A DNA stretch of 64,000 nt from a bacterium (GCA_046331705.1 JAXLQJ010000022.1:1-64000), one strand, 5' to 3'; counted from the stretch's first letter, positions 7,679-23,036 are shown. The notes: generated by a model from the letters alone, not told the origin. A program made the numbers and translations.

Positions 7679-10093
7679 TTACCGGTTCGGATGGCGGTGC
7701 CGCAGATCGCCGAGAACGTGTTCGAGTGCGGGATCGCGGTTGGCGAGCCAGTCGCGGGACGTGAGCGGATGGCGCCAGGCGGGCGCGAGCGTTCGCACCT
7801 CGAGATCGTATTGGTCGCCGTAGCACGCCGGTTGACCGCTGCAGCCGTGGACGATGTCCCAGAGGCCCGTGTTGATCGAGAAGCAGACCTTCGCGCGCGG
7901 TGCGCACACGTGCGTGCCCTCGGACCACCAACGGGTCCGGTCGCCGACCTCGTCGCCGACGATGACGACTTTCTCGCCGCCGTCGTGGGCGAGCGCCGCG
8001 GCACTCGCGATTCCCGCCGAGAACGTGTAGTTGCCGACCAGGAGGTAGATCTCGCCTCGCACGGAGTCGGCGATCAGGCGCATCAGCCCCCGGTTCTGGG
8101 TGTTGTCGCCACCGGTGTCGAAGCGTAGGTCGACGACCATGTCCTCGGGCGGAGCGGTGCGAAGGCGCTCGGCCACGCTGGCGACGAAGGGCGCGATCTT
8201 CGATTCGTTCACGTCCTCGTTGCTTCGAAACTGCACGTAGAGGGCGTCGAATCCGGGAACTGACCGCGCTCGGAAAGGCTCGTCGGGTCGTTGCAGGTAG
8301 AGCGGCGCCGACGCGGGATCGGCCGCCACGCTCCAGCCGCGCTCGACCTCGCCGGACCACGGCTCGGGCAACCAATAGCGCTGCGGCGGCTGGGGAGGCG
8401 GCAGCGCATCCACCGGCACCGCCTCCACGGTGCGCTCGACGATTCGCCCATCGCGAAGCCGCACCCGCAACCGAACCCGGTCGGCGTCTCGCGCCAACCC
8501 GAGCGCATGGAGCGCTTCGGGGCTCTGGAAGATCCAGGTCAGCTGCCAGCGCCGCAGGGCGTCGGTGCCGCCTTGGACCTCGCGCAGTCGCCGCATGAGC
8601 TCGGCGGGCGAGCGGCCCTCGAAGGCGAGAATGGAAGCGCCGAGAAGGTCGCGTGCCTCGGGTGCAGCGCGCGCCACCACGAGCGCATCGACGAACCAGA
8701 TCAGCCGAAGCGGCAATCGCAGCGTCGGGTGCCAGGCGCCCTCGTCGAGGTAGACGCCATCGTGACCGTTGTCGGCGAGCGCGGCGATGCGAGCGAGCGC
8801 CATCGCGAAGCCGGCGTCGTCGAGCGTGGCAGCGTCGTGGCGCAAGCGAGCGAGCCGTGCACGTGCCTCCGCTCGGGCGCGTGCCGGGAAGCCGGGTGCC
8901 ACCGCCACGTAATCGCGCTCGATCACGTCGAGGTCCGCACGGCGTTCGGCACCGACGTCGGCGTTGCCCGTTGCCGAAGCGGCGCTCACCCACAACACAC
9001 GCGGCGGGCAGCGCGAGACCGCGGGCTCGGGCTCGCGGTAAGTCACCAGCTCGACGGGACGGCCCACCCACGCCGCCGCATCCGCGGGGCGATAGAGCTG
9101 CGGAAAGAGGGCACCGCTCGTGCGATCGCCGAGGCGGCTCACGACGACTTCCTGCCCCTGCCGATCGCAGTCGCCGCCCGGCCAGTAGTGCTCCCGGACG
9201 CGGATTGCCGTGCCCGAGTCGAGAGCGATCTCGAGGAGCGGCGTGGAGCCGTCGACGTCGTCGTCGTAGCTCGCCGCGCGAACGGTGCCCGATTGGCGAC
9301 TCGCGACCTCGAGCTGTGGGATCGGGTGCACGCGGCGCTCGGCTCGAGGGCTCGCGAGCCATTTCAGCGGATTGCCCATCCCCCACGTTCGATCGGGGCT
9401 TTCCCACATGTCCCGGCCACGCTCGGCGTCGAACGAGAAGAGCAGCCGCCGCGCGAGCGGGGGTGCCGCGGGCACAGGCTCGAGGTGGCCCGCCGTGGGC
9501 CGGTAGAGCTGCCCGCCGTAGTACATCCCGCCACCGCGCCGGCGGTCGTCGGCCGGATACCAATCGGTGGCGAGCACCGCGCAGCCGGGCGCCGAGGGAA
9601 GCTGCACGAAGGCGCTCGGGCCGAAGTCCTCGACGGCGAACGCCAACGGTCGCATGCCGGGCTCGAACCCACCGACGTAGAGCAAGTCGCTCGACTCCAC
9701 TCCCAGGCCGTTGCTCGACGACCAGTGGTTGGCGATGACCCAGGTGAGCGCGCCGCGCGCGTCGGGAGCGCGGTAGAGCGCGAAATCCGAGGTGTCACCC
9801 AGGTAGCCGAGCGCCGGCCAACGCCAGCGCTCGGTGGTGCCCTCGAGGAAGAGCAGCACTTCGGGGTCGGTGTCCGGCCGCGCCTTGCAGAGGCGATGCG
9901 CGGCATCGACGGCGATGCAGCTCGCGAACGGATAGCCGGGCAGATCCACGGTGACGGGAGGCGGGTAGCGCTTCACCGCGCACGGTCGTGCGCCACGCAG
10001 GGGGTTCGTCGCCGGCTCTGCCGCGCTCGCCACGCGCGCGGCACCCATCGCGGTCACCGCGAGCCACGCAGCGACGAGGGCGCCTCCCTTCAC
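7679..10093 (-). CDS. Secreted two-part protein: unknown N-terminal domain plus S41-peptidase-like C-terminal domain
   Basis: GTGA overlap with the upstream GNAT stop; signal peptide; C-half has DNGH, LPLRL.WF, VVDLRFDTGGD, TFSAG, VIVGDEVG. Confidence 0.6.
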   Translation of the reverse strand: MKGGALVAAWLAVTAMGAARVASAAEPATNPLRGARPCAVKRYPPPVTVDLPGYPFASCIAVDAAHRLCKARPDTDPEVLLFLEGTTERWRWPALGYLGDTSDFALYRAPDARGALTWVIANHWSSSNGLGVESSDLLYVGGFEPGMRPLAFAVEDFGPSAFVQLPSAPGCAVLATDWYPADDRRRGGGMYYGGQLYRPTAGHLEPVPAAPPLARRLLFSFDAERGRDMWESPDRTWGMGNPLKWLASPRAERRVHPIPQLEVASRQSGTVRAASYDDDVDGSTPLLEIALDSGTAIRVREHYWPGGDCDRQGQEVVVSRLGDRTSGALFPQLYRPADAAAWVGRPVELVTYREPEPAVSRCPPRVLWVSAASATGNADVGAERRADLDVIERDYVAVAPGFPARARAEARARLARLRHDAATLDDAGFAMALARIAALADNGHDGVYLDEGAWHPTLRLPLRLIWFVDALVVARAAPEARDLLGASILAFEGRSPAELMRRLREVQGGTDALRRWQLTWIFQSPEALHALGLARDADRVRLRVRLRDGRIVERTVEAVPVDALPPPQPPQRYWLPEPWSGEVERGWSVAADPASAPLYLQRPDEPFRARSVPGFDALYVQFRSNEDVNESKIAPFVASVAERLRTAPPEDMVVDLRFDTGGDNTQNRGLMRLIADSVRGEIYLLVGNYTFSAGIASAAALAHDGGEKVVIVGDEVGDRTRWWSEGTHVCAPRAKVCFSINTGLWDIVHGCSGQPACYGDQYDLEVRTLAPAWRHPLTSRDWLANRDPALEHVLGDLRHRHPNR

Positions 10094-10695
10094 GTCCGCA
10101 GCGTCCAGATCGGCGGTCCACCACCGGGGCTGGGGGCGATCTCTTCGGTGACCTCGAAGCCGAAGCGCCGATAGAACGCGAGGTTCTTCGGGTTGGTGGT
10201 TTCGAGGTAAGTGAAGACGCCGGCTTCGGCGGCGCGCGCGAGCGCTTTCTCGACGAGCGCCGCGCCCACGCCGCGGCCGTGGAAGCTGGGGTCGGCGCCC
10301 AGCACTTGCACGTAGAGGTGCGGCTCGCGTGGATGCCGGTTGGCGATGACGCGCAGCACGCGCGGTCCGGTGACCAGGAAGCGCAGCGGCGGTGGTGCGG
10401 CAGGCGTGGTCGCGAGGAGGGTGAGCAACCGACCGACACGACGCGCCGGCGACGCATGGACGCGACCGGGCGGAACGAGCGCGATGGTTCCCGCGAGGGC
10501 GTCGAGGTGCGCCGCCCAGATCTCGCCGCGCGTCAGGCATTCCTCGAGCGCCGACGCCATGACCAAGCGCAACCAGGCACGGCGCCCGCGCTCGCTCGGA
10601 AGCAGGAAGCGAAACATCGGATCGGCGTCGAACGCACGCCGGAGCACGTAGGCCGCGTCGCCGATTCGCTCCGGGGGCAGCCGTTCGATGCGCAT
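10090..10695 (-). CDS. GNAT family N-acetyltransferase
   Basis: AF..DPMF, LGADPSFHGRGVG (AcCoA motif A), YLET..PKNL.FYRRFGF. Confidence 0.9.
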   Translation of the reverse strand: MRIERLPPERIGDAAYVLRRAFDADPMFRFLLPSERGRRAWLRLVMASALEECLTRGEIWAAHLDALAGTIALVPPGRVHASPARRVGRLLTLLATTPAAPPPLRFLVTGPRVLRVIANRHPREPHLYVQVLGADPSFHGRGVGAALVEKALARAAEAGVFTYLETTNPKNLAFYRRFGFEVTEEIAPSPGGGPPIWTLRT

Positions 10696-10787: not shown

Positions 10788-11588
10788 TCACTCGAGCGGA
10801 TCGCGTCCGAGCGCCGCGACGTGGGCGTCGTACCACTCGGGATGCCAGCGGCGCATCTCGGCGAGAGTCAGCGTGCCGGTGAACACGTCGCTGCGCGGCG
10901 GGAAGAGCACGCGGTAGCCGTGCCACACGATCGACACCGCGACCACCAACCACGCCTCGTGCGAGTGGATGGTCTCGGCGAAGGCAACGACCGTGCCCGG
11001 CTTCACCTCGAGCCCGACGAGCGCGAGCAGCGCCGCGATCCGAAACGGCACGATCGTGGGGACGGCCAGGATCAGGCCCGTGAGCCCCATCGCCGGAACA
11101 CCCCAGAGGATCGCGAGGTAGTGGAGCTTCGAGCGGTAATGCCAGCGTCCGGCACGATGATCGGCGGGCTCGCGTCCCGCGAAGTAGCGCGCGGTGTGGA
11201 GCGCGTCGGCGGCATCGTCGAGGTTGGGCAGCATCGGGATGCCGCGCCACAGCAGGCCGAGCTTGACCCCGAAGCCGCCGGCAGCGGAGCGCATCGCGCG
11301 CACGGCTCGCACGACGACCGGCAACGCGACCACCACGAGGTGGTGGACGAACATCGCCACCAGCACCAGCGCGGCGATGCGGTGGACGTAGCCCAGCACG
11401 TCGGCACCGCCGAGCCTGCGACCCAGCCGGGCAACCGTCTCCGATCGAAGCGAGAAGCCCGACAGCACCAGCGCAACCACACAGCCCGCGAGCGCTTGGT
11501 GGTGCACGCGCAGCACCTTGGGGTAGGTGGTCACGGGACCGCCGCGCCGGAACTCCTCGAGGCGCTCGGGTGTCACGACCTCGCTCAC
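10788..11588 (-). CDS. Inner-membrane diheme cytochrome b (FdnI/CbcL b-domain-like)
   Basis: GTGA overlap start; TM helices with RVHH..., HRIAA, KLHYLAILWG...LTGL, IHSHEAWL...VWH, and FTG.L...EM...HPEW tail. Confidence 0.8.
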   Translation of the reverse strand: MSEVVTPERLEEFRRGGPVTTYPKVLRVHHQALAGCVVALVLSGFSLRSETVARLGRRLGGADVLGYVHRIAALVLVAMFVHHLVVVALPVVVRAVRAMRSAAGGFGVKLGLLWRGIPMLPNLDDAADALHTARYFAGREPADHRAGRWHYRSKLHYLAILWGVPAMGLTGLILAVPTIVPFRIAALLALVGLEVKPGTVVAFAETIHSHEAWLVVAVSIVWHGYRVLFPPRSDVFTGTLTLAEMRRWHPEWYDAHVAALGRDPLE

Positions 11589-13693
11589 TTCGTCGCTCCC
11601 TTGCGCCGGCGCGCCCAGCGCGTGACCCGGCGCAGCGCATCCAGAAGGGCGTCGCCGCCCGCCCAGGCGACCGTACCGACCCCCACCAGCGAGATCGCCA
11701 GATGGACGTGCTGGCGCGGCGTCTTGCCGTGCGGCACCGCGACCACGTGATCGACGAGCGTCACGTAGTTCGCGTCGGCACCCACGTGGCACTTGCCGTT
11801 CGCGGCGCAGGTGGCGGCGCTCTTCGCGGGGTTGAGGCTCGAGTCCGGGTGCGCCGCGTTCAGCACCGCGTGAGCCGTGTGGCAGCTCGCGCAGGTGGCG
11901 GCGTCGCGCTTGCCGAGGCGCAGCTTCTTGGCGTGGATGCTCTCGCGGTAGGTGGCGAGCGGATCGGAGCGATAGGCGACCGCGGTGGCCGCTTCGCCGT
12001 CGCCCGTCGCGCTCACGACGTCCCACGCTCCCGAATGACACGACTCGGTGCAACCCGTCGCGATCCGGGTCCGCGCGACCTGCGAGCCCGCGTCACCGAG
12101 CTTCCGCACGTCGTGGTCACCGTGGCAGGTGGGGCAACCGGGCGCCGCCGCGGAACGCGCGTCGAAGGCCTGCCCGTGGACATCCTGTCGCCAGCTCACG
12201 GCTTCGGGGCGATGGCACGAGCCGCACGCGAGCGACGCCGCCGAGACCTGCGTGACGCGCTCACCCACGCCGCGCAAGCCGGCGCCCGTAGCCGCTCGCG
12301 GCGAGCCGTCGTCCGTCACGGGACGGCCGCGACCGTCGAGCGGCGCCGCGACCCGCTCGCTGCGCGCGATCGACCGATGCGGCGTCTCGGTCACGTCGAC
12401 GTGGCAATCGGTGCACGCGAGCTTGGCGTGTGCGGAGCGGCCCACGACCTCGAGCCCGCGCTCGTGGTCGTGACACGCACGGCACTCTTGGTCGAGCCGA
12501 GCGGCGCGCGCCTCGTCGAAGACGCGCTCGCCGCGAAAGTCCGACTCGTCGTCGAACGGCGAGGACGCGACGGAGCGCGTCCCTGCGGATTCACCATCGA
12601 GGGCGCGCGGTGCGCGGTCACCGGCGAGCGGCACGCGAAAGAGGTTCACGCCGCCGAGCCGAGCGCCGACGAACACCGCCTCGCGAGCATCGGGAGTGAG
12701 CGCGGGTGCGAACGCGGCGCGGCCTTCGGCGGTCACGAGCTCGGCGCGCATCGATCCCGTCTCGACCAGCCACAGCGCGGGCCCGTGGCCGAGATCGCGG
12801 GCGACCAGGAGGTGCCGCCCGGCGGCGTCGACGGGAACCACGCTCCTCCACGCGGCTCGGTCGCGATTCGCCACCTCTTCCGCGCCAGCTGGCGAGCCAT
12901 CCGCGGCGATCGGCACGCGCGTCCAGAGCGAGTACTCGCCGGCCACACGGACGAACGCCAGCGCGCGGCCACCGCTCTCGGTCGCGACGAAGGCGGGCGA
13001 CGCGCGATCGTCGTCGCCGGTCGCGATCGTCTGCGGCGGGCCCCCCTGCGCGGGCACCACTAGCACGCGGGTCGAGACGGTCTGGCCGCGGGCACGGGGC
13101 TCGCGGCGCGCCACCAGCGCGATCGACTCGCCGTCGGGCGACATCACCGGATCGGCCAGCCGCTCGCCGCCGACACCGCCGGCGAAGAGCACCCGGCTCG
13201 TCTCGGCGGTGGCGCCGAGCGCCACCAGCTCGTCGCGATCCTCGCGCGTGGCACGGCGAATCACGATCAGCCGATCGGATCGCGCGCCGCGCGCGATCGC
13301 CGTGATCTCGTGCTCGCTCGACGCTTCCACGAGCGCGCTGGGAGCTGCGTCGGGCGGGAGCGCCGGCGCACCGCCGGCGAGCGGCAACCGCACGAGGCGC
13401 ACTCCGGCGCGGTCTCGTGCCAGCGCCAGCAGGTAGCCATCGTCGCCCACGACCGGCGAGGACCAGGCGGTCGGGCCGACGGTGAGCGCAGTCCAGTCGT
13501 TCGCGGCGCGCGACCTCGAGGACGGAATCGCGACCGCGAGCGCGAGAAGCAACGTCGCCCGCCGCGGACGGCCGAAGCCACGCGCGCCGTAGGGCTGCGA
13601 CGGAGCGCAGCCCGCCAACCGAGCGCGATCCGGACCTGGAGCGATGCCCTCCGTCGCAACCGAAGGAGCCGCTCGATGGTCGATCGCGGGCAT
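11585..13693 (-). CDS. TolB-like beta-propeller fused to multiheme cytochrome c with C-terminal TM anchor
   Basis: PD40-like repeats (DPVMSPDG, SPAF, APALTPD); 5 CXXCH plus CTESCH and CAANGKCH; C-terminal hydrophobic helix followed by basic residues. Start is approximate. Confidence 0.8.
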   Translation of the reverse strand: MPAIDHRAAPSVATEGIAPGPDRARLAGCAPSQPYGARGFGRPRRATLLLALAVAIPSSRSRAANDWTALTVGPTAWSSPVVGDDGYLLALARDRAGVRLVRLPLAGGAPALPPDAAPSALVEASSEHEITAIARGARSDRLIVIRRATREDRDELVALGATAETSRVLFAGGVGGERLADPVMSPDGESIALVARREPRARGQTVSTRVLVVPAQGGPPQTIATGDDDRASPAFVATESGGRALAFVRVAGEYSLWTRVPIAADGSPAGAEEVANRDRAAWRSVVPVDAAGRHLLVARDLGHGPALWLVETGSMRAELVTAEGRAAFAPALTPDAREAVFVGARLGGVNLFRVPLAGDRAPRALDGESAGTRSVASSPFDDESDFRGERVFDEARAARLDQECRACHDHERGLEVVGRSAHAKLACTDCHVDVTETPHRSIARSERVAAPLDGRGRPVTDDGSPRAATGAGLRGVGERVTQVSAASLACGSCHRPEAVSWRQDVHGQAFDARSAAAPGCPTCHGDHDVRKLGDAGSQVARTRIATGCTESCHSGAWDVVSATGDGEAATAVAYRSDPLATYRESIHAKKLRLGKRDAATCASCHTAHAVLNAAHPDSSLNPAKSAATCAANGKCHVGADANYVTLVDHVVAVPHGKTPRQHVHLAISLVGVGTVAWAGGDALLDALRRVTRWARRRKGATK

Positions 13694-13707
13694 CCGGGGG
13701 TTCTTGC

Positions 13708-14400
13708 TCAGCCGCTTCCGCGGGTGGCGCCAGCCGGCAGCGGCGCCCAATCGCCGTGGTCCTTCTTGGCGGGACCTTCGGTGCCGTCCTTCCCCTGGAT
13801 CGTGGGGTGCTGCCACTTGTACCAGCGGGTCAGGAAGTCGGCGTGATAGGTCGGGCTCTCCGGGTTGTGACAGCGGGTGCAGGTCTCGAGCACCTCTTCC
13901 TTGGTCTTGATGTGGCTGAAGCCCACCTCGAGCGCCGCGGCGTACGCCTCCGCGTGCACCTCCTTCTTCTTGTACTTGGAGCCCGGGCCGTGACAGCCCT
14001 CGCACGTCACTCCTTCCTCGCGAGCGTAGAACTTTCCCTGCTGGGCCACGTCGGCTTCACCGGCGGTGGCGTGGCATCTCACGCATCTCACGTCGGTGGT
14101 GGCGTCGGCGATCCCCAGCTTGGCGGCGATCTCCTTCGATTGAGCGTTGGCCAAGGTCTTCATGGCCGTGGCGTGCGGGGACTTCTCCCACAGCTCGTAA
14201 ACGTTGTCGTAATAGTCCCGCTTGGTCATCGAGTGGCATTTCTTGCAGACGTAGACCCCTTCGTACTGAAGCGGCTCGCCCGCGCCAGCGCTCGTCACGG
14301 GTACCGCGCTCGCGAGCACGAGCGCGATCCCCAACCACCATCCGATTCGCGACATTCCGGCCGTCCCGTTCACACACGCCCCCTCTTCGTCGACGTTCAT
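13708..14400 (-). CDS. Tetraheme cytochrome c554-family protein
   Basis: Signal peptide; Y.G...CKKCH, W.KSPHA.A, CVRCH, EGVTCEGCHGPGS.Y, CTRCH. ATGA overlap at 14400; alternative start 14355. Confidence 0.85.
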   Translation of the reverse strand: MNVDEEGACVNGTAGMSRIGWWLGIALVLASAVPVTSAGAGEPLQYEGVYVCKKCHSMTKRDYYDNVYELWEKSPHATAMKTLANAQSKEIAAKLGIADATTDVRCVRCHATAGEADVAQQGKFYAREEGVTCEGCHGPGSKYKKKEVHAEAYAAALEVGFSHIKTKEEVLETCTRCHNPESPTYHADFLTRWYKWQHPTIQGKDGTEGPAKKDHGDWAPLPAGATRGSG

Positions 14401-15419
14401 CGCTCGTGGCACGCGGCGCACGTGGCGCCGAATTCGTGGCAGGTGAGACAGGCGCGCACGTTGGTGCGCGCGAAACGCTGATGTCCGTCCCCGGGGAACT
14501 GGAAGCGCGGGAACGAATGGCTGCGCGGCGGGATCGCGTGGCAGGCCTCGCAGAACTCGGCCTCGTGGCAGGTGGCGCAGCGGCGTCGGTCGTGCTGGGC
14601 GAAGCGCCCGTGAAGCGATTGGTCCCAGCGCGCGACGTGGCTGCGCGGCCGCATCGTGGTGTGGCAGGAAACACAGAACTCGGTGGCGGCCAGACCGGAC
14701 TCGGGAAACGCGAGCCGGCGCGATCCTTCGTGGCACCAATGGCAGTTGGCGGCGGCGCGCTCCGCCTCGAAGCCGTGGGATTCGAGCCAACCGGCGCCGC
14801 GATGCGAGGGCGGGCGAACGTCGGGACGGCGCTGCTCGTGGCACGTGGCGCAATCGCTGGGCGCGCCCTCGGCGGCGTGACAGGTCATGCACGCCTCCAT
14901 CGAGAGCGGATACGTGAAGACCGACCGTTTCACCGCGCCGAACTTGGGGTTGTCGATCGGCAACGTGTGGCAACGCTGGCAATCGATGGGCTCGCCGACG
15001 CCATTCTTGGTGTGGTCGGCGTGCCGGAACTTCACGTCCTGGAAGACGTGCGGCTTCCAGATGACCTCGCCGGTCTCGGCGGTGTGGCATTCCTTGCAGA
15101 AGCGATTGGGGCTCGCCTTCGCTTCCTCGATGGGCACGGCCACGTCGTGGCAGCCGCCGTCCTTGCCGTAGCAACCGGTGGCGCCTTGGTGCGAGGGGCG
15201 CGTGTACTCGCGACCGTCGGCGTCGAGCGCGTGGCACGCGACGCATCGGTCGTAGCCGGGCTCGTCCTTGATCTGGTCGGGGTGCTCGCCATGGGAGAAG
15301 TGCAGCCCCGTGTCGTAGCCGAATCCGAGACAGCCGCCCGCGACCAGCATCGCCGCCGCCGCGATCCCGACGACGGCACGGGTCCATGCCGCGCGGCGCA
15401 CACGTTCGAGTTGGCTCAT
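14397..15419 (-). CDS. Multiheme (about 12) cytochrome c lipoprotein, c3/c7-like
   Basis: Lipobox-like AGGC; 11 CXXCH plus CYGKDGGCH; FSH..H and FRH..H distal-ligand motifs. Confidence 0.9.
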   Translation of the reverse strand: MSQLERVRRAAWTRAVVGIAAAAMLVAGGCLGFGYDTGLHFSHGEHPDQIKDEPGYDRCVACHALDADGREYTRPSHQGATGCYGKDGGCHDVAVPIEEAKASPNRFCKECHTAETGEVIWKPHVFQDVKFRHADHTKNGVGEPIDCQRCHTLPIDNPKFGAVKRSVFTYPLSMEACMTCHAAEGAPSDCATCHEQRRPDVRPPSHRGAGWLESHGFEAERAAANCHWCHEGSRRLAFPESGLAATEFCVSCHTTMRPRSHVARWDQSLHGRFAQHDRRRCATCHEAEFCEACHAIPPRSHSFPRFQFPGDGHQRFARTNVRACLTCHEFGATCAACHER

Positions 15420-15434
15420 GGCTCGCGAATCGCC

Positions 15435-17021
15435 TCAGAAATGCACCGTCGCGTCCACGAAGAGCTGCTGGACGCGGCTCAGATCGGGAAGGACGGTCGG
15501 GAACTCGTCGGCGGGCACCGTGATCGGTGAGCCCGGATATCGCACCACCAGATCCTTCAGGTAACCGTAGCCCGCGGTGAGCACCATCCGGCTGGGCCAG
15601 CGATAGCGAACGTAGGCCGTCACGTCCCACGACGTGAGATCGTTGCTGGTCGCGAATCGGGTGCGCGACTCGTCGAAGAACCGGTAGCCCGGTCGCACCA
15701 CGAGCAGCAGCCGCGAGCCGAGCGCGCGCAGCGTGGCTTCGCCGAGCACCTCGGTGTAGGCGGTCTCGCCTTCGCCCGTCGTGTCGGAGAGATCGTCGGC
15801 GCCCAGATCGGCGGGGATGTCGGCGCGGAAGATCTCGTGACGCAGCCCGGTGAGCGAGAGATCGAGCGCTTCGATCGGGCCGAGCCCGCGCAGATCCGTG
15901 ACGTAGGCACCGCCGCCCACCTCGACGAAATCCGAGTTGCTCGTCGCAGCGCCGGCACTTCCCTCGAAGACGCGGGCGACCAAGGACGCCGTGAGTCCCA
16001 GCGAAGCCCAGCTCGGTCGCAGCACGGTGACGCTGCCGTCGAGCTGCCATTCGTGAAACGGCGGCAATGGCGGCAAGAGCAGGCGATCGAGCTTGGACGA
16101 GTCGGTGGGGAGCTGGGCGGCGGACGTGAGATCGAAGCGCAGGTCGTCCTCGGCGTCCGCGGCCTTGTAGAGGTACGAGCCGAAGACCGCGGCATCGCGA
16201 CCTTCGAGCCCGCCTTCCCCGGAATCGAACCACGAGGTGTTGAGCGTGAGCTCGCGCAGGCCGGCATCGAGGCTCGTGATCTCGAACGAGCCGTCCCAGG
16301 TATCGGAGAGCTCCTGGAAGACGTAGAGGTTGGCTTCGTTCTTGGCGTAGTAGACGTCGGAGAGCTCGACGCGGGTGTGGCTCGCGGGGCGGAAGATCCA
16401 GCTGCCGCCCGCGACCAGCTCGTCCTCGGGATCCGTGTCGTAGGTGACGCGGCGCCCGGCGAGCGCCAGGAAACGGCCATCGAGCGGCGCCACGAAGGAA
16501 ACCTCGCCGCCGTCGAAATGAAGCGGCTCGACCAAGTAGCGATAGGCGCGCCCGACCCGGACCTCGCCGCTCGCCGGGAAGCCCTGGTAATCGGCCCACC
16601 CTTCGAGGAGCCGCACGTCGCGATTGCCGTCGTAGTGATCGCGGGCGTCGACGAACGGCGAGCCGTCGCCGGTGCCGTCCAGATCCTGCTCGTAGCGCAG
16701 CGTCGCTGCCGCCGAGAGTCCCTCCGTGCCGATGCCGCTCAGGTGGAGCTTGAGATCCTCGAAGAGATCGTCGTCGTGGACCGATGCGTGGGTCGGATCC
16801 TCGGTCGTGCCCCATTCGTGGCGATAACGGCTGCGCAGCGACCCCCACACCTCGGGAGTCGCGAACGCATCGGCGAGCGCCGAGACCGGCACGAGCGTGA
16901 GCGCCAGCATCGAGATGAGCGACGCGAGCGCGAGGCCGACGGCGCGATCGGTGGCGGCACGCGGGCGACGCGCGAACGCCACGGGACGGGCGCTCCGCTG
17001 CCGACGCTCCGCCGGGCTCAT
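15435..17021 (-). CDS. Outer-membrane beta-barrel (porin of a porin-cytochrome complex)
   Basis: ATGA overlap start; signal peptide ending VSALA; amphipathic aromatic-rich strands; terminal LFVDATVHF (BAM-type C-terminal Phe); flanked by multiheme cytochromes. Confidence 0.8.
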   Translation of the reverse strand: MSPAERRQRSARPVAFARRPRAATDRAVGLALASLISMLALTLVPVSALADAFATPEVWGSLRSRYRHEWGTTEDPTHASVHDDDLFEDLKLHLSGIGTEGLSAAATLRYEQDLDGTGDGSPFVDARDHYDGNRDVRLLEGWADYQGFPASGEVRVGRAYRYLVEPLHFDGGEVSFVAPLDGRFLALAGRRVTYDTDPEDELVAGGSWIFRPASHTRVELSDVYYAKNEANLYVFQELSDTWDGSFEITSLDAGLRELTLNTSWFDSGEGGLEGRDAAVFGSYLYKAADAEDDLRFDLTSAAQLPTDSSKLDRLLLPPLPPFHEWQLDGSVTVLRPSWASLGLTASLVARVFEGSAGAATSNSDFVEVGGGAYVTDLRGLGPIEALDLSLTGLRHEIFRADIPADLGADDLSDTTGEGETAYTEVLGEATLRALGSRLLLVVRPGYRFFDESRTRFATSNDLTSWDVTAYVRYRWPSRMVLTAGYGYLKDLVVRYPGSPITVPADEFPTVLPDLSRVQQLFVDATVHF

Positions 17022-19339
17022 GGTTCGTCCGCCAGCGTCCCGGGCCGCTGGCCACGCGCGTCCGCGAGCCGATCCTTGGGGCGGAAGTGGTAGGTGTGGC
17101 ACGACTCGCACGCGAGCTCCGCGGCGCGGCCGTCGCGGTGACATGCGACGCACGTTTCCATCGGCCGCGGGTACTCGCCGGCTTTGCGCACCACTTCCTC
17201 GAACTCCTCGTTGCCGTCGAAGTCACCCACGTGGCAACGGCGGCAATCGAGCGTTCCCTCGGTCGTGAAGAGCTGCCGCGCGTTCTTCGCCTCGAGATGC
17301 TCGCGGTGCGTGAAGCGCACGTGCACCGAACGCCGGGGGAGGGCGGGAACCGAACCATCGGCGGTGGTGTGGCACTCCTTGCAGAAGCGGTTGGGCGCCT
17401 TCTTCGCCTCCGCGATCGGCACCGCCGCGGTGTGGCAGCTCTCGCCCTCGCCGCCGGCGCAACCCTTGGCACCCTCGTGCGAGGGGATCGCGAACTCGCG
17501 CTTCTCGGTCTCGGTGTGGCAGCCCAAGCAGCCGCCTTCGCGATGCTCCTGCTCGTTGGTCTTCAGGTGCTCGTGATGGGAGAAGACCAGCGTCGTGTGG
17601 ATGGGTTCGCCGCGACCGCTCGCCGCGTATCGTCCCTCGGGCCGTTCGAGCTCGGTGCCGCCGTGGATCAGCGTGTGGCAACCCGAGGTCTGACACGTCG
17701 CCGGCGCGAGCTCGGCCAGGCTCGCGCGATCGCGGTGCTCGAAATGACACGCGGCACAGTCCTCGTGGCCCTCCGTCCGATGCGTGCCTTCCATCCCGGG
17801 ATGGCAGCCGGCGGTCGCGCAGCGCAGGTCGATGCCGTCGAGACGGAACGAGCCATGACAAGCGCTGCAGCTCTTCTCGAGCTTGGCGTGCTTCTTCGAG
17901 GGGACCCGCTCGGGAAAGTCCGGACGCAGCTGACCGCCCTGGTACGGGTCGAGGGGAATACCCTCGCGGAGCACGCGGCTCAGGACGTTGCCCTCGCTCG
18001 CCACGTGGCAGTCGCCGCAGCGCGCCGCTTCCTCGGCGGGCTGGGTGGCGTGATCGACCGAGACGAGATCGCTCGCATCCACGGTGACGCGCGCGACCTC
18101 GCCGCTCGGCGAGAAGCCCGCCGCCTTTCCGCCGGCGACGGCAGCCGCGGCCCACTCGTCCGGCGCCGAGGCGAGCGCGGCGGGGTCGATCGGCAGCGGC
18201 AGAGCGCCGTCGTAGGTGCCCGGCAAGGCGCGTGCGCCGTCGGCGGCGAGCACGACCTCGATCGGCAGGAAGGGCTTGAGCTTGGCGCGAAACGCGCCCT
18301 GACGCCCGGCACCCGCGGTGGCGTCGTAGGCGGCGAGATCGCGCTCCCACACCCAGCGCAGCCGCGGTCGCTGCATGCCGCGGAAGGTGATCGCCGGTCG
18401 CGGCGCCGCACCGGTCGTTCGTGGCGCGAGCTGGGTGAGATCGATCCGCAACGCCGGCACGTCGCGGGTGTGGCAGGCACCGCACGCGAGGATCTCCTGG
18501 TGCCGCTCGATGCGCTCGTCGTGGTGGATCGGGGCCGCGTGGCAGTGCGCGGCCTGGCACGAAGCCGACTCGCGGCGATCGTGCGCGGGATCGGCTCGAC
18601 CGGTGACGGACGTGGCCGCGCCTTGCTGCTTCGCCACCGTCTGCGGTCGGTGCGACGTCGCGAGGTGGCACGTGAAGCACGTCTTCTCGACGGCGGAGGG
18701 ATCGCTCGAGTCGAGACCGCGCAGGTGAACGTCCCGCCCAGGCTTTCCCGACGCATCCGGCGGCGCCTCGGCGATGGCGCGCGCGACCGCCGTCGCGAGC
18801 GAGCCGCCATGACAGGTGAGGCAACGCGTGCCGGACGCGTCACCCACGCGCGCATCGCTCGGGAACCCACCCGCCACCAGCAGATCGAGCGAATGGGAGT
18901 GGCAGCCGACGCATGCCTCCCCCGCGGGGGCGCCGCGCGGACCCGGCGCACGGGTGCCGGTGGCGCGCGGCGGATCGACGCCCTCGACGTGACAGCTCGC
19001 GCAGCCTGCGAGCGGCGCGTGATCGGTCGCGGCGAGCGTCGCCAGGAACACCGCCCAGCCCGGTAGCCCCGAGGCACACACCCGCCCGAGCGATTCACCT
19101 CCGAGCACCGCCCCTCGGGCGTGATCCTGCTCCATGGACGAGGTCATCTTGCCGGGATGGCAGCTCTCGCAGCTCGGGGTCGCGCCGAAGTCGAACGCCG
19201 GCTCGAGGTTGCGAGCGGAAGCGGGCGCGACGAGTCCCAGCCAGATCACCAACAGCCTCCCGATCCATCGCACGTCGACACGCCGGCGCCTCTTCCGCGC
19301 CGCCGCAGCGGCCGGCTCGTCCTCGGACGCGGCGCTCAT
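17018..19339 (-). CDS. Large multiheme (about 18) cytochrome c
   Basis: ATGA overlap start; signal peptide ending APASA; 14 CXXCH, 3 CX4CH and 1 CX7CH. Confidence 0.9.
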   Translation of the reverse strand: MSAASEDEPAAAAARKRRRRVDVRWIGRLLVIWLGLVAPASARNLEPAFDFGATPSCESCHPGKMTSSMEQDHARGAVLGGESLGRVCASGLPGWAVFLATLAATDHAPLAGCASCHVEGVDPPRATGTRAPGPRGAPAGEACVGCHSHSLDLLVAGGFPSDARVGDASGTRCLTCHGGSLATAVARAIAEAPPDASGKPGRDVHLRGLDSSDPSAVEKTCFTCHLATSHRPQTVAKQQGAATSVTGRADPAHDRRESASCQAAHCHAAPIHHDERIERHQEILACGACHTRDVPALRIDLTQLAPRTTGAAPRPAITFRGMQRPRLRWVWERDLAAYDATAGAGRQGAFRAKLKPFLPIEVVLAADGARALPGTYDGALPLPIDPAALASAPDEWAAAAVAGGKAAGFSPSGEVARVTVDASDLVSVDHATQPAEEAARCGDCHVASEGNVLSRVLREGIPLDPYQGGQLRPDFPERVPSKKHAKLEKSCSACHGSFRLDGIDLRCATAGCHPGMEGTHRTEGHEDCAACHFEHRDRASLAELAPATCQTSGCHTLIHGGTELERPEGRYAASGRGEPIHTTLVFSHHEHLKTNEQEHREGGCLGCHTETEKREFAIPSHEGAKGCAGGEGESCHTAAVPIAEAKKAPNRFCKECHTTADGSVPALPRRSVHVRFTHREHLEAKNARQLFTTEGTLDCRRCHVGDFDGNEEFEEVVRKAGEYPRPMETCVACHRDGRAAELACESCHTYHFRPKDRLADARGQRPGTLADEP

Positions 19340-20430
19340 CCTTGGGGATGCGCGGCGTCGAACTCGGCTTTCTTCTGACGCACGGCGCTTTCGGGCTCGC
19401 CGATCGGCAACGTCTCCCAGAACGACGTGCTCGCCGGTGCCGTGAGCGTGTGATGACCCGAAACGTGGCAGTTGTAGCATTGCCGGCGCGTCAGCGGATC
19501 GTCGGGCAGCTCACCGTTCTCGCCCGAGACGTGGCAGAAGACGCACGAGCCCTTGGTGCGCTGCGGCGGTGCCGCGAACGGCACGAACGCGTCCGTGGTG
19601 GTGATCAGCAACCGGTGCGCGGTGAAGCGACCGTTGGCTCCTTCGGGGTTGGTGGTTCGGAACCAGTGGCAGTCGTTGCACGACGGCATCTCGCCGTGGC
19701 GCGCTTCGCCGCTCAGATCGTGACAGCCGCCACACCCCGGCGCCACGCGCTCCACCGACATGGTGCTCGACTGGAGCTTCTGGCCGTCCCATTGCCAGCC
19801 CTCGCGGAGGATCTGGCGGTGCTTGGGAGCGTTGTCACCCGTCACGAGGATCGCGCCGGCGGCAGCGGCCGAGGTCTCGAGCAGCGAGTAAGGATCGAGC
19901 GGGCCTTCCCAGTACGGCAGCAGCCGGAACAGGTTGGTGAAGCCGGTCTGGAACACGGGCTCCTTGAGCCAGTCGTGGCAGCCCGAGGCGCAGTCGGTGC
20001 CACCCGCGTAGAGCAGGCCGAGCGCCGGCTGCGGGTAGACGTTGCGGTTCTGGGCATAGTCCTGCGCCGTGGAGTGGCCGACGTGACAGGTGCGGCACGC
20101 CTCGAGGTCGCGCGCCGCGTGAGCGCCGCGGCGGGGGAACACCACGCGCGAGCCCGGCTCGTAGCCGAAGCCGTCGCCGAGTTGATCGACCACCTCGCGC
20201 GCCGAGCCCCGCACCTTCACGCCGGTGAGCGTCGCGGCGGGGTGGCAGTCGAGGCAGAAGGCGGACGCCGTGGTCACGGCGCCGTCGTCACCCGCGCAAC
20301 CCACCGCCAGCGCCAACGCGCACGCGCCGAGCGCGATCCGCAGCGCCCCGCTGCGGCGGGCCAACGCGATTCGCGTGCGCAAGACCGGGTCGCGAGGCTC
20401 GAGTCGTGACGGCGCAACCGTCATGGGCAT
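19336..20430 (-). CDS. Multiheme (about 7) cytochrome c lipoprotein
   Basis: Lipobox LAVGC; 6 CXXCH plus CASGCH. Confidence 0.85.
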   Translation of the reverse strand: MPMTVAPSRLEPRDPVLRTRIALARRSGALRIALGACALALAVGCAGDDGAVTTASAFCLDCHPAATLTGVKVRGSAREVVDQLGDGFGYEPGSRVVFPRRGAHAARDLEACRTCHVGHSTAQDYAQNRNVYPQPALGLLYAGGTDCASGCHDWLKEPVFQTGFTNLFRLLPYWEGPLDPYSLLETSAAAAGAILVTGDNAPKHRQILREGWQWDGQKLQSSTMSVERVAPGCGGCHDLSGEARHGEMPSCNDCHWFRTTNPEGANGRFTAHRLLITTTDAFVPFAAPPQRTKGSCVFCHVSGENGELPDDPLTRRQCYNCHVSGHHTLTAPASTSFWETLPIGEPESAVRQKKAEFDAAHPQG

Positions 20431-20475: not shown

Positions 20476-21207
20476 TCAGCGCAAGCGCTCGCGGCGAGCA
20501 TCCCACGCATCGAGCCACGACTGGAGCTTGCCGTGGAAGGTCTCGAGCCTGGAGCCACCCAGCGAGACCTGGCTCAGACACCAGCACTCCTCCTCCACGT
20601 CCGTCCACGGCGAGTGGCGGGTACCGGGCTCGCCTTCGATCCAGTCCCCGGTGAGCACCTGATCTTCGGCAAGCTCGACCGGCGGCGCCATCCCACGTTT
20701 GTAGCCCCCCGCGAGGATGACGTTGTCTTCGCGCTCCAGGTGATAGTGCAGCGGAAACGCGCTGTTCTTGCCGTAGTAGGTCAGGTAGAGCTCGGTACCC
20801 GCCGCGGGCTCGCGAACCAGCACGGTGAAGCGCGTGCGGCTCGGCCAGAGATTGGTCCACGACCAGCGCTCGGCGGGTTCGAGCTCGGCGAGCACGTTCG
20901 GCGGCAGCACGGCCGCTTCCGGCGGCCAGCGCACCGCGCGGCGCGACTCGATCCGCGACCAGAGCCGATCGAAGGCCGGCAGCGGTTGGTCGCGCGGCGC
21001 CGCCGAACCGCGTGCCTCGCGCCAGGGCTCGTCGAGCGGCGGGCGCGCCGCCGTCACCGCGCTCGTGCAGGCGTCGCAGTGGAAGAGATGCGCCTCGAGC
21101 ACGATGCGCTCGGTCCTAGAGGCGCGTCCCTCCGCGAACGCGAGCAAGCGCTCGGCGGGCGGATGACGCGTGGGGACGCGAACGCGCTCGGCGCGCGGGG
21201 CGATCAT
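20476..21207 (-). CDS. ChrR-like anti-sigma factor (ZAS domain plus cupin)
   Basis: ATGA overlap with the sigma gene; HP...LLAFAEG...EAHLFHCDAC (H-X3-C-X2-C); C-terminal cupin with PLHYH...E..VIL.G...HSP. Confidence 0.8.
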   Translation of the reverse strand: MIAPRAERVRVPTRHPPAERLLAFAEGRASRTERIVLEAHLFHCDACTSAVTAARPPLDEPWREARGSAAPRDQPLPAFDRLWSRIESRRAVRWPPEAAVLPPNVLAELEPAERWSWTNLWPSRTRFTVLVREPAAGTELYLTYYGKNSAFPLHYHLEREDNVILAGGYKRGMAPPVELAEDQVLTGDWIEGEPGTRHSPWTDVEEECWCLSQVSLGGSRLETFHGKLQSWLDAWDARRERLR

Positions 21208-21773
21208 CGCTCGCCCTCGATCGCGGCGCGCATCGCCAGCAGCGCCGCGTGAACTCGCGACTTGACCGTCCCGAGCGGGATCCCCAGCTCGCGCGCGGCT
21301 TCCTGGAAGCGCAGATCCTTCAAGTACACGAGCTCCACCAGCTGGCGCTGCTCCGGGGTGAGCGTGCCCAGCGCTCGCTGCGCCAACCGTCGGCGATCCA
21401 GCTCGGCCGAGACGCCAGGCGGCGCGGGCGGCGCGTGGTCGACCGCTTCGCCGAGCGCTTCGCCGAGCCGGCCCAGCCGTCGCCAGTGATCGTGCAGCTT
21501 GTTGCGCGTGATCGCGAACAGCCACTGCTCCACCGAGCCCCGCTCGGGGCGGAAGCCCTTGGCGCCCACCCACACCGCCACGAACACGTCCTGGACGATG
21601 TCCGCGGTGACATCCGGATCGGTGGTGTGCTTGAAGACACTGGCATACACCCGTCGCGCGAACCGTTCGTAGAGCACCCGTAGCGCGTCGCGCTCCGCTC
21701 CGGCGACCCGAAGCAGCAGCTCGTCATCCGCTGGCGGCATTGCGACCGAGGGCCGCGGGTCCGTGCTCGGCAT
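21204..21773 (-). CDS. ECF (sigma-70 group 4) RNA polymerase sigma factor
   Basis: DDELL, DIVQDVFVAVW, WLFAITRN...DHWR, L.PEQR....LVY, GIPLGTVKSR. Confidence 0.92.
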   Translation of the reverse strand: MPSTDPRPSVAMPPADDELLLRVAGAERDALRVLYERFARRVYASVFKHTTDPDVTADIVQDVFVAVWVGAKGFRPERGSVEQWLFAITRNKLHDHWRRLGRLGEALGEAVDHAPPAPPGVSAELDRRRLAQRALGTLTPEQRQLVELVYLKDLRFQEAARELGIPLGTVKSRVHAALLAMRAAIEGER

Positions 21774-21947
21774 GTATTCGCGAGACGGCGCGAGGAGGTT
21801 CGCGTTTATAGCAGAGCTCGTGCCGCTGCGAACCATCCACCGCCCCCGGACGAATGCCACATGCGTTGTGTGGCGCGCGCGCGCCGATCACCGGATACTG
21901 GCGCGGTTGCGCGCCGCGATCCGCGCGAGCGCGCAAGGAAGGGTTTC

Positions 21948-23036
21948 GTGGCCGGCTCCCCTGCAGCAACCTCGTCCTTCCTCGACGTCCACACGTACGC
22001 GCCGGCTCACGAGTATCCCCAGCTCGAGCTGCTCGAAGGTGTGCTCCGCCAGGCGCGGCCGGAGCGCCGCACGCGGCGGCTGCTCGAGACGCTGTTTCGG
22101 CGCAGCGGCATCACGACACGCTTCATGGCAGTACCAGACTTCGCGCAGGGGGCCGATCCGGTTCTCTACCGCGAGCCGGGAGTCGAGCCCTCGACCCAGG
22201 ACCGCATGCGGCTCTTCGCCGCGCTCGCGCCGCTGCAGGCGCTGGGCGCCGCCCGGCCGCTCGTCGAGCGACACGCGGTGGCGGAGCGGATCACCCACGT
22301 GGTGACCTCGTGCTGCACCGGCTTCGTGGCCCCTGGCTGGGACCTCCGGGTGATCGACGAGCTGGGGATCCCCGAGGGTGCGGGGCGGGTGCACGTCGGC
22401 TACATGGGCTGCCACGCCGCCGTGAACGCGCTCCGCGTGGCCCACGCGTTCGCGCTCGGGAATCCGGAAGCGCTGGTGCTGGTGATCGCCAACGAGCTCT
22501 CCTCGCTCCACTTCAACTTCAGCGATCGCATCGACAACCTGCTCTCCTGCACGATCTTCGCCGACGGCGCCGCCGCGGCGCTGATCGGCGGCGCGGCGTG
22601 GCGCGAGCGGGCGCGCGGCCAGCTGGGCGGCTTCCGCTCGCAACGCGTCCCCGGCACCTCGGCGCTGATGGGCTGGCGGATCGGCAACGTGGGCTTCGAG
22701 ATGGACCTGAGCCCCGAGCTGCCGGACGCCATCGAGCGTTTCGTCGCCGAGCGCGGCGTCGCGAGCGAGCGGCCTGGCGACGAACGGGTCCAAGACCTCG
22801 TTCACGCCGGCGGCAAGGCGATCCTCGAAGCCTTCGCGAAAGGGCGCGGCACCGGGGCCGACGGTATCCGCTACAGCTTCGAGGTCCTGGCCCGGAACGG
22901 GAACATGTCGTCCGGCACGATCCTCTTCATTCTCTCGCGCTGGCTCGACGATCCCCACGGCCTGCCGTCCGCCGAGGCCCACGCCTTCGGCCCCGGCGTG
23001 GTGGCGGAGCGGTTTCATCTGGCCCGCACCAGGTGA
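21948..23036 (+). CDS. Type III polyketide synthase (chalcone synthase-like)
   Basis: GTG after AAGGAAGG; catalytic triad Cys (MGCHAA), His (HAGG), Asn (GNMSS); IFADGAAA; AFGPG. Confidence 0.88.
   Translation: MAGSPAATSSFLDVHTYAPAHEYPQLELLEGVLRQARPERRTRRLLETLFRRSGITTRFMAVPDFAQGADPVLYREPGVEPSTQDRMRLFAALAPLQALGAARPLVERHAVAERITHVVTSCCTGFVAPGWDLRVIDELGIPEGAGRVHVGYMGCHAAVNALRVAHAFALGNPEALVLVIANELSSLHFNFSDRIDNLLSCTIFADGAAAALIGGAAWRERARGQLGGFRSQRVPGTSALMGWRIGNVGFEMDLSPELPDAIERFVAERGVASERPGDERVQDLVHAGGKAILEAFAKGRGTGADGIRYSFEVLARNGNMSSGTILFILSRWLDDPHGLPSAEAHAFGPGVVAERFHLARTR

What the first reader, a model, noticed from the sequence alone, without database searches (positions are those of the whole stretch)
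10788..20430. Single-operon trans-envelope electron conduit: quinone-pool cytochrome b, periplasmic multihemes, porin and lipoprotein cytochromes (~48 heme motifs)
Seen: seven co-oriented genes, four junctions being ATGA/GTGA overlaps and two being ~15-bp gaps. Order: 7-heme lipoprotein, 18-heme cytochrome, beta-barrel ending in Phe, 12-heme lipoprotein, c554-like tetraheme, propeller plus 7-heme TM-anchored protein, cytochrome b. No catalytic subunit (molybdopterin, NiFe, flavin or CXXCK heme) is present. Known: MtrCAB and the Geobacter OmaB-OmbB-OmcB and ExtABCD porin-cytochrome complexes cross the outer membrane, while CymA, ImcH and CbcL are generally encoded elsewhere. Inference: a self-contained, non-Mtr extracellular electron-transfer system spanning both membranes. 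Its direction (metal/electrode reduction, uptake or interspecies transfer) is unknown. This is my best candidate for an undescribed system.
Basis: partly seen in the sequence, partly recalled or inferred. Interest (0 to 1): 0.88.

Follow-up and report, generated by a model that had tools for sequence, protein, structure and literature searches.

The report
Porin-cytochrome operon with own quinone module

Summary
In detail: seven coupled minus-strand genes carry 40 CXXCH plus 8 atypical motifs, and all seven genes occur in all six genomes of the phylum. It is not a new kind of system. The barrel models as a 22-strand pore with no plug and is a remote OmbB relative. The 12-heme lipoprotein beside it holds an OmaB core. 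The last two genes are a split CbcL/MtrH-type bc cytochrome, not CbcBA. Pcc, Mtr and PCC3/4 clusters with membrane b/bc modules are in print (PMC4245776, PMC6295460, PMC5566968). 'No catalytic subunit' is unsafe: the 18-heme protein opens with an OTR-like octaheme that keeps the active-site Cys but lacks the Lys ligand. New here: that fusion, a propeller-fused split CbcL with shifted histidines, a c554-like carrier and an upstream ECF sigma pair. No homologue of genes 1, 5, 6 or 7 lay in 50 distant barrel loci. Binding, localisation, direction and expression are unshown. The scan noted other porin-cytochrome conduits on other DNA, none matching this one.

The parts
21204..21860 (-). ECF-type sigma factor (start uncertain); ATGA-coupled to the next gene; likely regulator or first gene of the unit (inferred)
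   Evidence: Sigma70_r2 and r4 over cut-off; same position in 4 of the 5 relatives, contig ends in the fifth
20476..21207 (-). zf-HC2 plus ChrR-cupin-like anti-sigma; ends 45 nt before gene 1
   Evidence: PF13490 over cut-off, PF12973 under; ATG overlaps the sigma stop; directly upstream of the cytochrome genes in 5 of 5 relatives
19336..20430 (-). g1: 6 CXXCH + 1 CX3CH cytochrome with a probable lipoprotein signal; candidate surface cytochrome; not an obligatory operon member
   Evidence: only generic c7 hits, no solved relative; in G005 it lies on another contig at 49% identity
17018..19339 (-). g2: 18-motif cytochrome with a signal peptide, built of an OTR-like octaheme, a c3-like tetraheme and a copy of the g4 N-terminal module
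17954..19210 (-). OTR-like domain of g2 (residues 44-462): eight motifs collinear with OTR, Cys88 kept, Lys ligand absent
   Evidence: profile hit to PDB 1SP3 at E 2.4e-4; PF11783-bearing clusters lead the Atlas lists at scores of only 0.88-0.89 and TM under 0.5; alignments
17051..17596 (-). C-terminal six-heme module of g2 (residues 582-763), a duplicate of g4 residues 37-208
   Evidence: 43% identity within the window, 41-43% against the copies in relatives
15435..17021 (-). g3: 22-strand outer-membrane beta-barrel without a plug domain; remote member of the OmbB (Pcc porin) superfamily
   Evidence: AlphaFold2 pLDDT 85, pTM 0.79; barrels fill the fold lists; profile links to OmbB-type porins with negative controls; tree
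14397..15419 (-). g4: 11 CXXCH + 1 CX6CH probable lipoprotein; C-terminal half is an OmaB-type core, expected to sit in the barrel (inferred)
   Evidence: 23-32% to 8-heme OmaB-type proteins; invariant Cys/His columns from residue 206 to 338 in a 30-row alignment; the D. kysingii homologue is labelled OmaC-B in PMC11492766
13708..14400 (-). g5: c554-like tetraheme with a signal peptide; probable periplasmic carrier
   Evidence: PF13435 E 5e-13, over cut-off; PDB 1BVB E 3e-5; NF043010 far under its cut-off
11585..13693 (-). g6: TolB-like propeller (weak), CbcL-type heme domain (5 CXXCH + 2 atypical) and C-terminal anchor in which Asp681 replaces the CbcL His
   Evidence: 26-32% to five CbcL-type proteins, E 1e-21 to 9e-27 in a 7-sequence set; Asp in 6 of 6 genomes
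10788..11588 (-). g7: FdnI/HydC-like cytochrome b, the membrane half of a split CbcL; His31, 69, 208 and 223 kept, extra His210 and His156
   Evidence: PF01292 over cut-off; best hit in 5 of 5 Desulfobacterota genomes tested is a 9-heme, roughly 630-aa CbcL-type frame; His210 in 6 of 6 genomes

Best explanation
A Pcc-family porin-cytochrome conduit encoded together with its own quinol-oxidising module, working outward. Quinol is oxidised at the diheme cytochrome b (g7). Electrons pass to the anchored CbcL-type heme domain (g6), across the periplasm through the c554-like tetraheme (g5) and the 18-heme protein (g2), into the OmaB-type half of g4 seated in the 22-strand barrel (g3), and to the surface, where g1 may act as the terminal cytochrome toward metal oxides, humics, electrodes or partner cells. 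Shown here: gene order, coupling, conservation, barrel fold, homology to OmbB/OmaB and CbcL. Inferred: every contact, the localisation of g1 and g2, the order of carriers, ECF-sigma control and the outward direction.
For: The barrel profile hits the porin in front of D. kysingii genes labelled OmaC-B and OmcB-C (E 1.2e-20) and the porins of 403-aa porin + 8-heme + 9-12-heme cassettes (E 1e-22 to 7e-29). Nearest barrel relatives against 13 OmbB-type porins give hhalign 99.1% over 375 columns; three unrelated barrels score under 4%. A g4 homologue lies in 46 of 50 distant barrel loci. Strand number and heme number fall in the published Pcc range of 18-22 strands and 5-14 hemes, with 338-344-aa, 12-14-heme examples (PMC4245776). 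g6+g7 align with CbcL, which G. sulfurreducens needs for low-potential acceptors. The genome has a T2SS secretin and cytochrome c assembly genes over their cut-offs, 53 frames with 3 or more CXXCH and further CbcL-like and ImcH-like genes. ImcH has been tied only to quinol oxidation (PMC6295460), which favours outward flow; the ImcH label here is my reading of the architecture.
Against: The direct link of the query's own four-sequence profile to OmbB is weak (48%, E 1.8e-4), so membership is transitive, and the tree puts the barrel outside the OmbB clade (quick method). g1 shows no similarity to the OmcB-type lipoproteins in the loci and sits outside the operon in G005. CbcL/MtrH/MtoC homologues serve both directions and no sequence feature separates them (PMC6295460). 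The genome has six heme-copper oxidase subunit I matches and its DNA is found mainly in activated sludge and wastewater runs, so an anaerobic metal-respiring life is not evident. g2 keeps a lone invariant Cys that a pure wire would not need.
Confidence: 0.55

Rival explanations
1. The chain ends in an enzyme. The OTR-like domain of g2 has swapped Lys ligation for a His/Cys-ligated heme 2 and reduces a sulfur, selenium or nitrogen compound in the periplasm or at the surface; the Pcc pair supplies or exports the electrons.
For: Cys88 is the only one of 37 Cys outside a motif and is invariant across 5 orthologues and 5 OTR-family proteins. His/Cys hemes are catalytic in TsdA and MccSep (PMC13510729). 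In 12 of 12 close Desulfobacterota loci the porin + 12-heme pair is followed by a multiheme gene interrupted by an in-frame TGA, one of which gave a weak OTR-family hit, so this barrel family often travels with a possible enzyme.
Against: The Lys that defines OTR catalysis (10.1101/2023.04.20.537704) is missing in 4 of 4 sequences. MmcA shows that OTR relatives can be pure conduits (same paper). The g2 domain profile did not pick up those Desulfobacterota proteins (best E 2.5). The domain's geometry is unknown.
Confidence: 0.2
2. The same hardware runs inward: extracellular Fe(II), reduced humics or partner cells donate electrons, and g6/g7 reduce quinone for aerobic or nitrate respiration.
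For: MtoC, a CbcL homologue, lies in mtoAB clusters of Fe(II) oxidisers (PMC6295460). Six heme-copper oxidase matches and two alternative complex III-like clusters are in the genome. The histidine and acidic-residue pattern of g7 differs from Geobacter CbcL.
Against: The only Pcc complex described as characterised in PMC4245776 acts in Fe(III) reduction. The genome also carries ImcH-like and NrfA/H-like genes typical of reducers (labels from architecture and recall).
Confidence: 0.15
3. A stress-induced redox sink or capacitor under the upstream ECF sigma/ChrR-like anti-sigma, not a growth-supporting respiratory chain; or a periplasmic chain in which the barrel no longer houses a cytochrome.
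For: The sigma/anti-sigma pair is fixed upstream even where g1 has moved away. ChrR-type anti-sigmas respond to oxidative stress (recalled). About 48 hemes give storage capacity.
Against: The barrel and g4 are conserved at 74-91% in all relatives and as a pair across phyla. The cupin hit is under its cut-off. No promoter evidence links the sigma to the operon (one search covers sigma-70 sites only).
Confidence: 0.1

Closest known systems
Pcc porin-cytochrome complexes, OmbB-OmaB-OmcB of Geobacter/Desulfuromonadia and relatives (Shi et al. 2014, PMC4245776; parts 2 and 3 of 6 read)
   Same: Barrel of 22 strands homologous to OmbB-type porins, followed directly by a cytochrome with an OmaB core. 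Size and heme number match the 12-14-heme periplasmic type. The paper already reports pcc clusters with FDH-cytochrome-b-like membrane cytochromes (Dester_0351, Theam_0871).
   Different: Outside the OmbB clade. The OmaB-type protein is a probable lipoprotein with an extra N-terminal heme module. No OmcB homologue. OTR-like fusion, c554-like carrier and split CbcL are in the same operon.
CbcL / MtrH / MtoC bc-type quinol oxidoreductases (PMC6295460 and 10.1101/2021.04.15.440034, passages read)
   Same: Homologous heme domain, anchor helix and FdnI/HydC-like b domain. mtrH/mtoC already occur inside mtrAB/mtoAB clusters.
   Different: Split in two genes, 5+2 motifs in place of 9, a propeller-like N-terminal domain, anchor His replaced by Asp and an added His in the last helix in 6 of 6 genomes.
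CbcBA of Geobacter sulfurreducens (10.1101/2021.04.15.440034, passages read)
   Same: A seven-motif cytochrome anchored at its C-terminus next to a separate cytochrome b.
   Different: Sequence matches go to CbcL. The His that CbcA is proposed to donate is absent. The upstream regulator is an ECF sigma, not BccR/sigma-54.
PCC3 and PCC4 (He et al. 2017, PMC5566968, passages read)
   Same: One cluster proposed to span both membranes: porin, several multihemes and a diheme-b-like inner membrane protein. Untested.
   Different: Their membrane protein has five helices with two WX3HX13H motifs, which g7 lacks. PCC3 porins are larger. No homology to them was tested here.
Octaheme tetrathionate reductase (PDB 1SP3) and its conduit relative MmcA (10.1101/2023.04.20.537704, passages read)
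   Same: Eight collinear heme motifs, distal His positions and the active-site Cys.
   Different: The Lys ligand is absent, heme 2 is kept (unlike MmcA), and the domain is fused to ten further hemes.
MtrCAB / MtoAB / PioAB
   Same: General porin-cytochrome principle. MtrB (6R2Q chain B) aligns at Z 14.6, rmsd 4.9 over 367 residues.
   Different: No family hit, 11% identity, rank 20 among unrelated barrels, and no MtrA-type decaheme over its cut-off.

Membership tests
Pcc (OmbB-OmaB-OmcB family) | Outer-membrane porin of 18-22 strands | tested here: met
   22 strands counted from the DSSP list of a pLDDT-85 model; range from PMC4245776
Pcc (OmbB-OmaB-OmcB family) | Porin homologous to OmbB | tested here: met
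   Transitive: hhalign 99.1% through the nearest relatives. A profile without 8 Desulfobacterota-type bridge rows (62 of 70 kept) gives E 2e-17 and 2e-14 against 0.013 for a GSU2204-family barrel. The direct four-sequence profile gives only 48%. Outside the OmbB clade.
Pcc (OmbB-OmaB-OmcB family) | Adjacent 5-14-heme cytochrome homologous to OmaB | tested here: met
Pcc (OmbB-OmaB-OmcB family) | Outer-surface cytochrome (present in most but not all pcc clusters) | tested here: inconclusive
   g1 is a probable lipoprotein but has no hit at E<1e-3 in 50 distant loci, many of which hold OmcB-type genes; localisation unknown
Pcc (OmbB-OmaB-OmcB family) | Porin and cytochromes form a complex that passes electrons across the membrane | not testable with these tools
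MtrCAB/MtoAB/PioAB | MtrB/PioB-family porin | tested here: not met
   No such hit for g3 or for 0 of 70 family members in Pfam or NCBIfam; PF11854 not found in the genome
MtrCAB/MtoAB/PioAB | MtrA-type decaheme | tested here: not met
   TIGR03508 best score 25.8 bits against a cut-off of 192, on g5 only
CbcL/MtrH/MtoC | Multiheme c domain joined to an FdnI/HydC-like diheme b domain by homology | tested here: met
   homology over both halves
CbcL/MtrH/MtoC | One polypeptide with nine hemes and six helices, His in the first helix | tested here: not met
   Two genes, 5+2 motifs, Asp681 at the His position in 6 of 6 genomes
CbcBA | Seven-heme C-terminally anchored cytochrome plus separate cytochrome b | tested here: met
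   Architecture only, counting two atypical motifs
CbcBA | CbcB-type sequence, His from the CbcA anchor, BccR/sigma-54 control | tested here: not met
   Only CbcL-type frames were hit in 5 of 5 genomes; anchor His absent; ECF sigma upstream
PCC3/PCC4 | Inner membrane protein with two WX3HX13H motifs | tested here: not met
   His list of g7 and its sequence show no Trp four residues before any His
PCC3/PCC4 | Porin homology to PCC3 or PCC4 porins | not tested
OTR (octaheme tetrathionate reductase) | Eight collinear heme motifs and the active-site Cys | tested here: met
OTR (octaheme tetrathionate reductase) | Lys ligand of heme 2 | tested here: not met
   No Lys between the first distal His and Cys88 in 4 of 4 sequences; TIGR04315 19 bits against 375
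Cytochrome c554 | PF13435 domain with four motifs | tested here: met
   50.3 bits against 20.8
Cytochrome c554 | Equivalog of Nitrosomonas c554, with HAO partner | tested here: not met
   NF043010 39 bits against 400; no HAO gene among the seven

The most novel reading that the evidence does not exclude
The OTR-like domain of g2 is a new His/Cys-ligated catalyst, wired by its duplicated module to a Pcc pore and by a re-liganded split CbcL to the quinone pool. The operon would then be a self-contained, ECF-sigma-controlled respiratory enzyme system spanning the envelope, giving an uncultured six-genome phylum of wastewater sludge an unrecognised role in sulfur, selenium or metal redox.
Probability: 0.17. 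Interest if true: 0.78.

Novelty: new variant of a known kind. Interest (0 to 1): 0.5.

Why it matters
It extends the Pcc family to a phylum with no cultured model in my data and to a barrel family that Pfam and NCBIfam miss entirely (0 of 70 members), so marker-based surveys undercount such conduits. One 9.6-kb operon holds all predicted steps from quinol to surface, which makes it a compact test case for heterologous extracellular electron transfer. The natural His-to-Asp and Asp-to-His changes bear on the open question of how CbcL's five histidines bind two b hemes. The OTR-like domain without its Lys is a natural probe of how OTR enzymes turn into wires. Near-identical DNA occurs in runs of ten sludge or wastewater studies, so the organism may take part in electron exchange in engineered systems.

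Tried and rejected
Word-indexed homologue searches found only the four own-phylum proteins; the full HMMER search was needed (86 hits). Three barrel alignments were too diverse for the locus finder, so distant neighbourhoods come from a Desulfobacterota subgroup query, one metagenome scan with 3 loci and 20 stretches chosen from the 55 of 351 genomes hit. Neighbourhoods of the nearest barrel relatives were not seen, apart from the short L051-L053. No solved OmbB or OmaB chain turned up by sequence or fold; absence from these lists excludes nothing. AlphaFold2 of the OTR-like domain failed (pLDDT 38), so no fold search was run on it. Complex prediction of barrel with g4 was not available. My first reading, that g6+g7 are CbcBA, was dropped. 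The idea that g2 is orthologous to the TGA-interrupted multiheme beside Desulfobacterota barrels was not supported. Two RNA runs of one study gave 13 and 15 laid contigs, the listed pieces short and at depth 2-6; contigs cannot show transcription and DNA carry-over is possible. The sigma-70 promoter and terminator scan found nothing above chance. The careful tree did not finish; only the quick tree is used. Paper searches returned no description of this gene set in the listings or passages I read. The genes have no names to search, most subscription journals and bioRxiv supplements are not covered, and I did not read the supplements of PMC4245776 or PMC5566968, which list cluster members.


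Full report
Observation. The seven minus-strand genes, four overlaps and two gaps (15 and 14 nt) are as described. There are 40 canonical CXXCH motifs, and 48 with eight atypical CX3-7CH motifs, against about 0.1 expected from the genome's six-frame background. Whether the longer atypical motifs bind heme is open; PMC4245776 says the same for spacings above four. An ECF sigma and a zinc-finger/cupin anti-sigma lie just upstream on the same strand.

Distribution. The phylum holds six genomes, all of one family, and the barrel is in 6 of 6. None of 35 genomes drawn from elsewhere in the domain matched the single protein. The seven genes are in order on one contig in G002, G003 and G004 and across two contig ends in G001. 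In G005, the second genus, g2-g7 follow the sigma pair across two contig ends, and g1 sits elsewhere at 49% identity. These genomes are kin and not independent tests. Eighteen DNA runs from ten studies hold 63-91% of the sampled words; 17 are labelled sludge, wastewater or digester, and one may be the source.

The barrel. No Pfam or NCBIfam family matches it. A full HMMER search gave 86 relatives. I aligned 70 sequences; none hit NCBIfam, and Pfam hit only Temptin_C in 3 and TSP3_bac in 1. The model has pLDDT 85 and 22 strands, starting right after the signal peptide. Fold searches return many outer-membrane barrels with no clear winner; MtrB is rank 20. Neighbourhoods identify the family. Of 27 loci, 12 carry a close porin followed by a 12-heme probable lipoprotein that matches g4 over its length at 28-33%. 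The other 15 carry roughly 404-aa porins followed by a 10-heme protein and, where the contig extends, mostly a 10-16-heme probable lipoprotein (with L036 and L037). In Desulfuromusa kysingii those two cytochromes are WP_092344091.1 and WP_092344090.1, labelled OmaC-B and OmcB-C in supplementary file 7 of PMC11492766. Four further loci show 403-aa porin + 8-heme + 9-12-heme cassettes, one in tandem, hit at E 1e-22 to 7e-29. The five nearest relatives align with 13 such porins at 99.1% over 375 columns. Three other barrels score under 4%, and removing eight bridging rows leaves E 2e-17 and 2e-14. Against this, the query's own four-sequence profile gives only 48%, and the quick tree places it apart from the OmbB clade, among uncharacterised barrels. 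It is a remote member of the superfamily, not an OmbB orthologue.

The partner. g4 residues 172-339 match the OmaB-type proteins at 23-32%, and the Cys and His columns from 206 to 338 are invariant or nearly so in a 30-row alignment. A g4 homologue occurs in 46 of 50 distant barrel loci. Some of these loci come from the same genome and many stop at contig ends. The N-terminal half of g4 is duplicated at the C-terminus of g2 (43%). That g4 sits in the pore is inferred from the Pcc model; no complex prediction could be run.

The membrane module. In 5 of 5 Desulfobacterota genomes tested the only g7 match is a 9-heme frame of about 630 aa, which reads like the G. sulfurreducens CbcL printed in the supplement of PMC11492766 (compared by eye). 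g6 matches its heme domain at 26-32%. CbcA has a different sequence. So g6+g7 are a split CbcL/MtrH type. CbcL has five candidate b-heme histidines (10.1101/2021.04.15.440034). Here the anchor His is Asp and a new His lies two residues after the first His of the last helix, in 6 of 6 genomes. The four FdnI-type positions remain (assignment recalled). The N-terminal propeller is weakly supported.

The 18-heme protein. Residues 44-462 hit Shewanella OTR (1SP3, E 2.4e-4). PF11783 clusters lead the Atlas lists, at lead-level scores. All eight motifs are collinear with five OTR-family proteins. The MmcA preprint names three catalytic features of OTR: the second motif, a Lys ligand and a Cys. The motif and Cys88 are kept and the Lys is absent in 4 of 4 sequences. 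The lack of CXXCK therefore does not exclude catalysis, but the canonical OTR site is not intact either. The structure prediction failed.

Mechanism. Most likely: quinol to g7 to g6, then g5 and g2, then g4 inside g3, then the surface and perhaps g1. Outward flow is favoured by the characterised Pcc and CbcL relatives and by other reducer-type genes in the genome; a T2SS secretin and cytochrome c assembly genes are present. Six heme-copper oxidase matches and the two-way use of CbcL homologues (PMC6295460) keep inward flow open. I put outward conduit at 0.55, enzyme-terminated chain at 0.2, inward at 0.15 and stress sink or other at 0.1.

Comparison and novelty. PMC4245776 (parts 2-3 of 6 read) gives the Pcc ranges and reports pcc clusters with membrane cytochromes resembling formate dehydrogenase cytochrome b. 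PMC6295460 (passages) reports mtrH/mtoC and cymA inside mtrAB clusters. PMC5566968 (passages) proposes PCC3 and PCC4 as envelope-spanning clusters. The premise that the quinone module is generally encoded elsewhere holds for the model organisms only. What I did not find elsewhere is this gene set: no g1, g5, g6 or g7 hit at E<1e-3 in 50 distant loci, and no description in nine paper searches, within the limits given under Tried and rejected. Other papers seen as passages: PMC10553843, PMC11492766 (plus supplement searches), PMC7096707, PMC12133095, PMC13591261, PMC13510729. Earlier scan notes list other conduits on other DNA; look-ups by place and sequence found nothing like this one.

Verdict. 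A real, conserved operon and a new variant of a known kind: a remote Pcc conduit packaged with a modified split CbcL, a c554-like carrier and an OTR-derived 18-heme protein. Interest 0.5.

Noticed in passing
L024-L035 (for example L026:2482-6498): In 12 of 12 close Desulfobacterota loci the porin + 12-heme pair is followed by a 1-heme ORF that ends at an in-frame TGA and continues without a break into a roughly 1200-aa 7-heme frame. This looks like an eight-heme selenoprotein with weak OTR similarity, unlike the five-heme MccSep of PMC13510729. No SECIS test was done.
   Followed up: partly
G000:C19:66000-94500 (L012, L013): A second large cytochrome region: OmcE-like tetraheme (label recalled), NHL-repeat proteins, 5-, 8-, 10- and 13-heme proteins, CbcL-like and ImcH-like genes and another porin-like ORF. 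It resembles the porin-NHL-cytochrome clusters named in scan note e1-2993867.
   Followed up: partly
G000:C48:12352-20613 (L016): Adjacent 32- and 24-motif cytochromes between a His-rich membrane ORF and an apparent flavin/FeS ORF.
   Followed up: no
G000:C8:2071-7686 (L015): Another split CbcL-type pair (11 hemes + cytochrome b) that keeps the anchor His, next to NiFe hydrogenase genes.
   Followed up: partly
G000 contigs C6, C7, C23, C26, C28, C42, C53, C63: About two dozen 680-1030-aa frames with 4-5 CXXCH motifs each, apparently an expanded family.
   Followed up: no
P0059, P0066, P0090: Barrel relatives with an N-terminal single-CXXCH domain, probably the three Temptin_C hits, a Cyc2-like fused heme-porin layout.
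   Followed up: no
L106:272-5631 (G005:C135): G005 has a second Pcc cassette (12-heme, porin, 13-heme) whose porin groups with the OmbB clade on a long branch.
   Followed up: partly
window 21861-23036 and 10090-10695: A divergent type III polyketide synthase upstream and a GNAT acetyltransferase downstream flank the operon in most relatives.
   Followed up: no
window 54589-55923: A heme-copper oxidase subunit I family match lies in this window.
   Followed up: no
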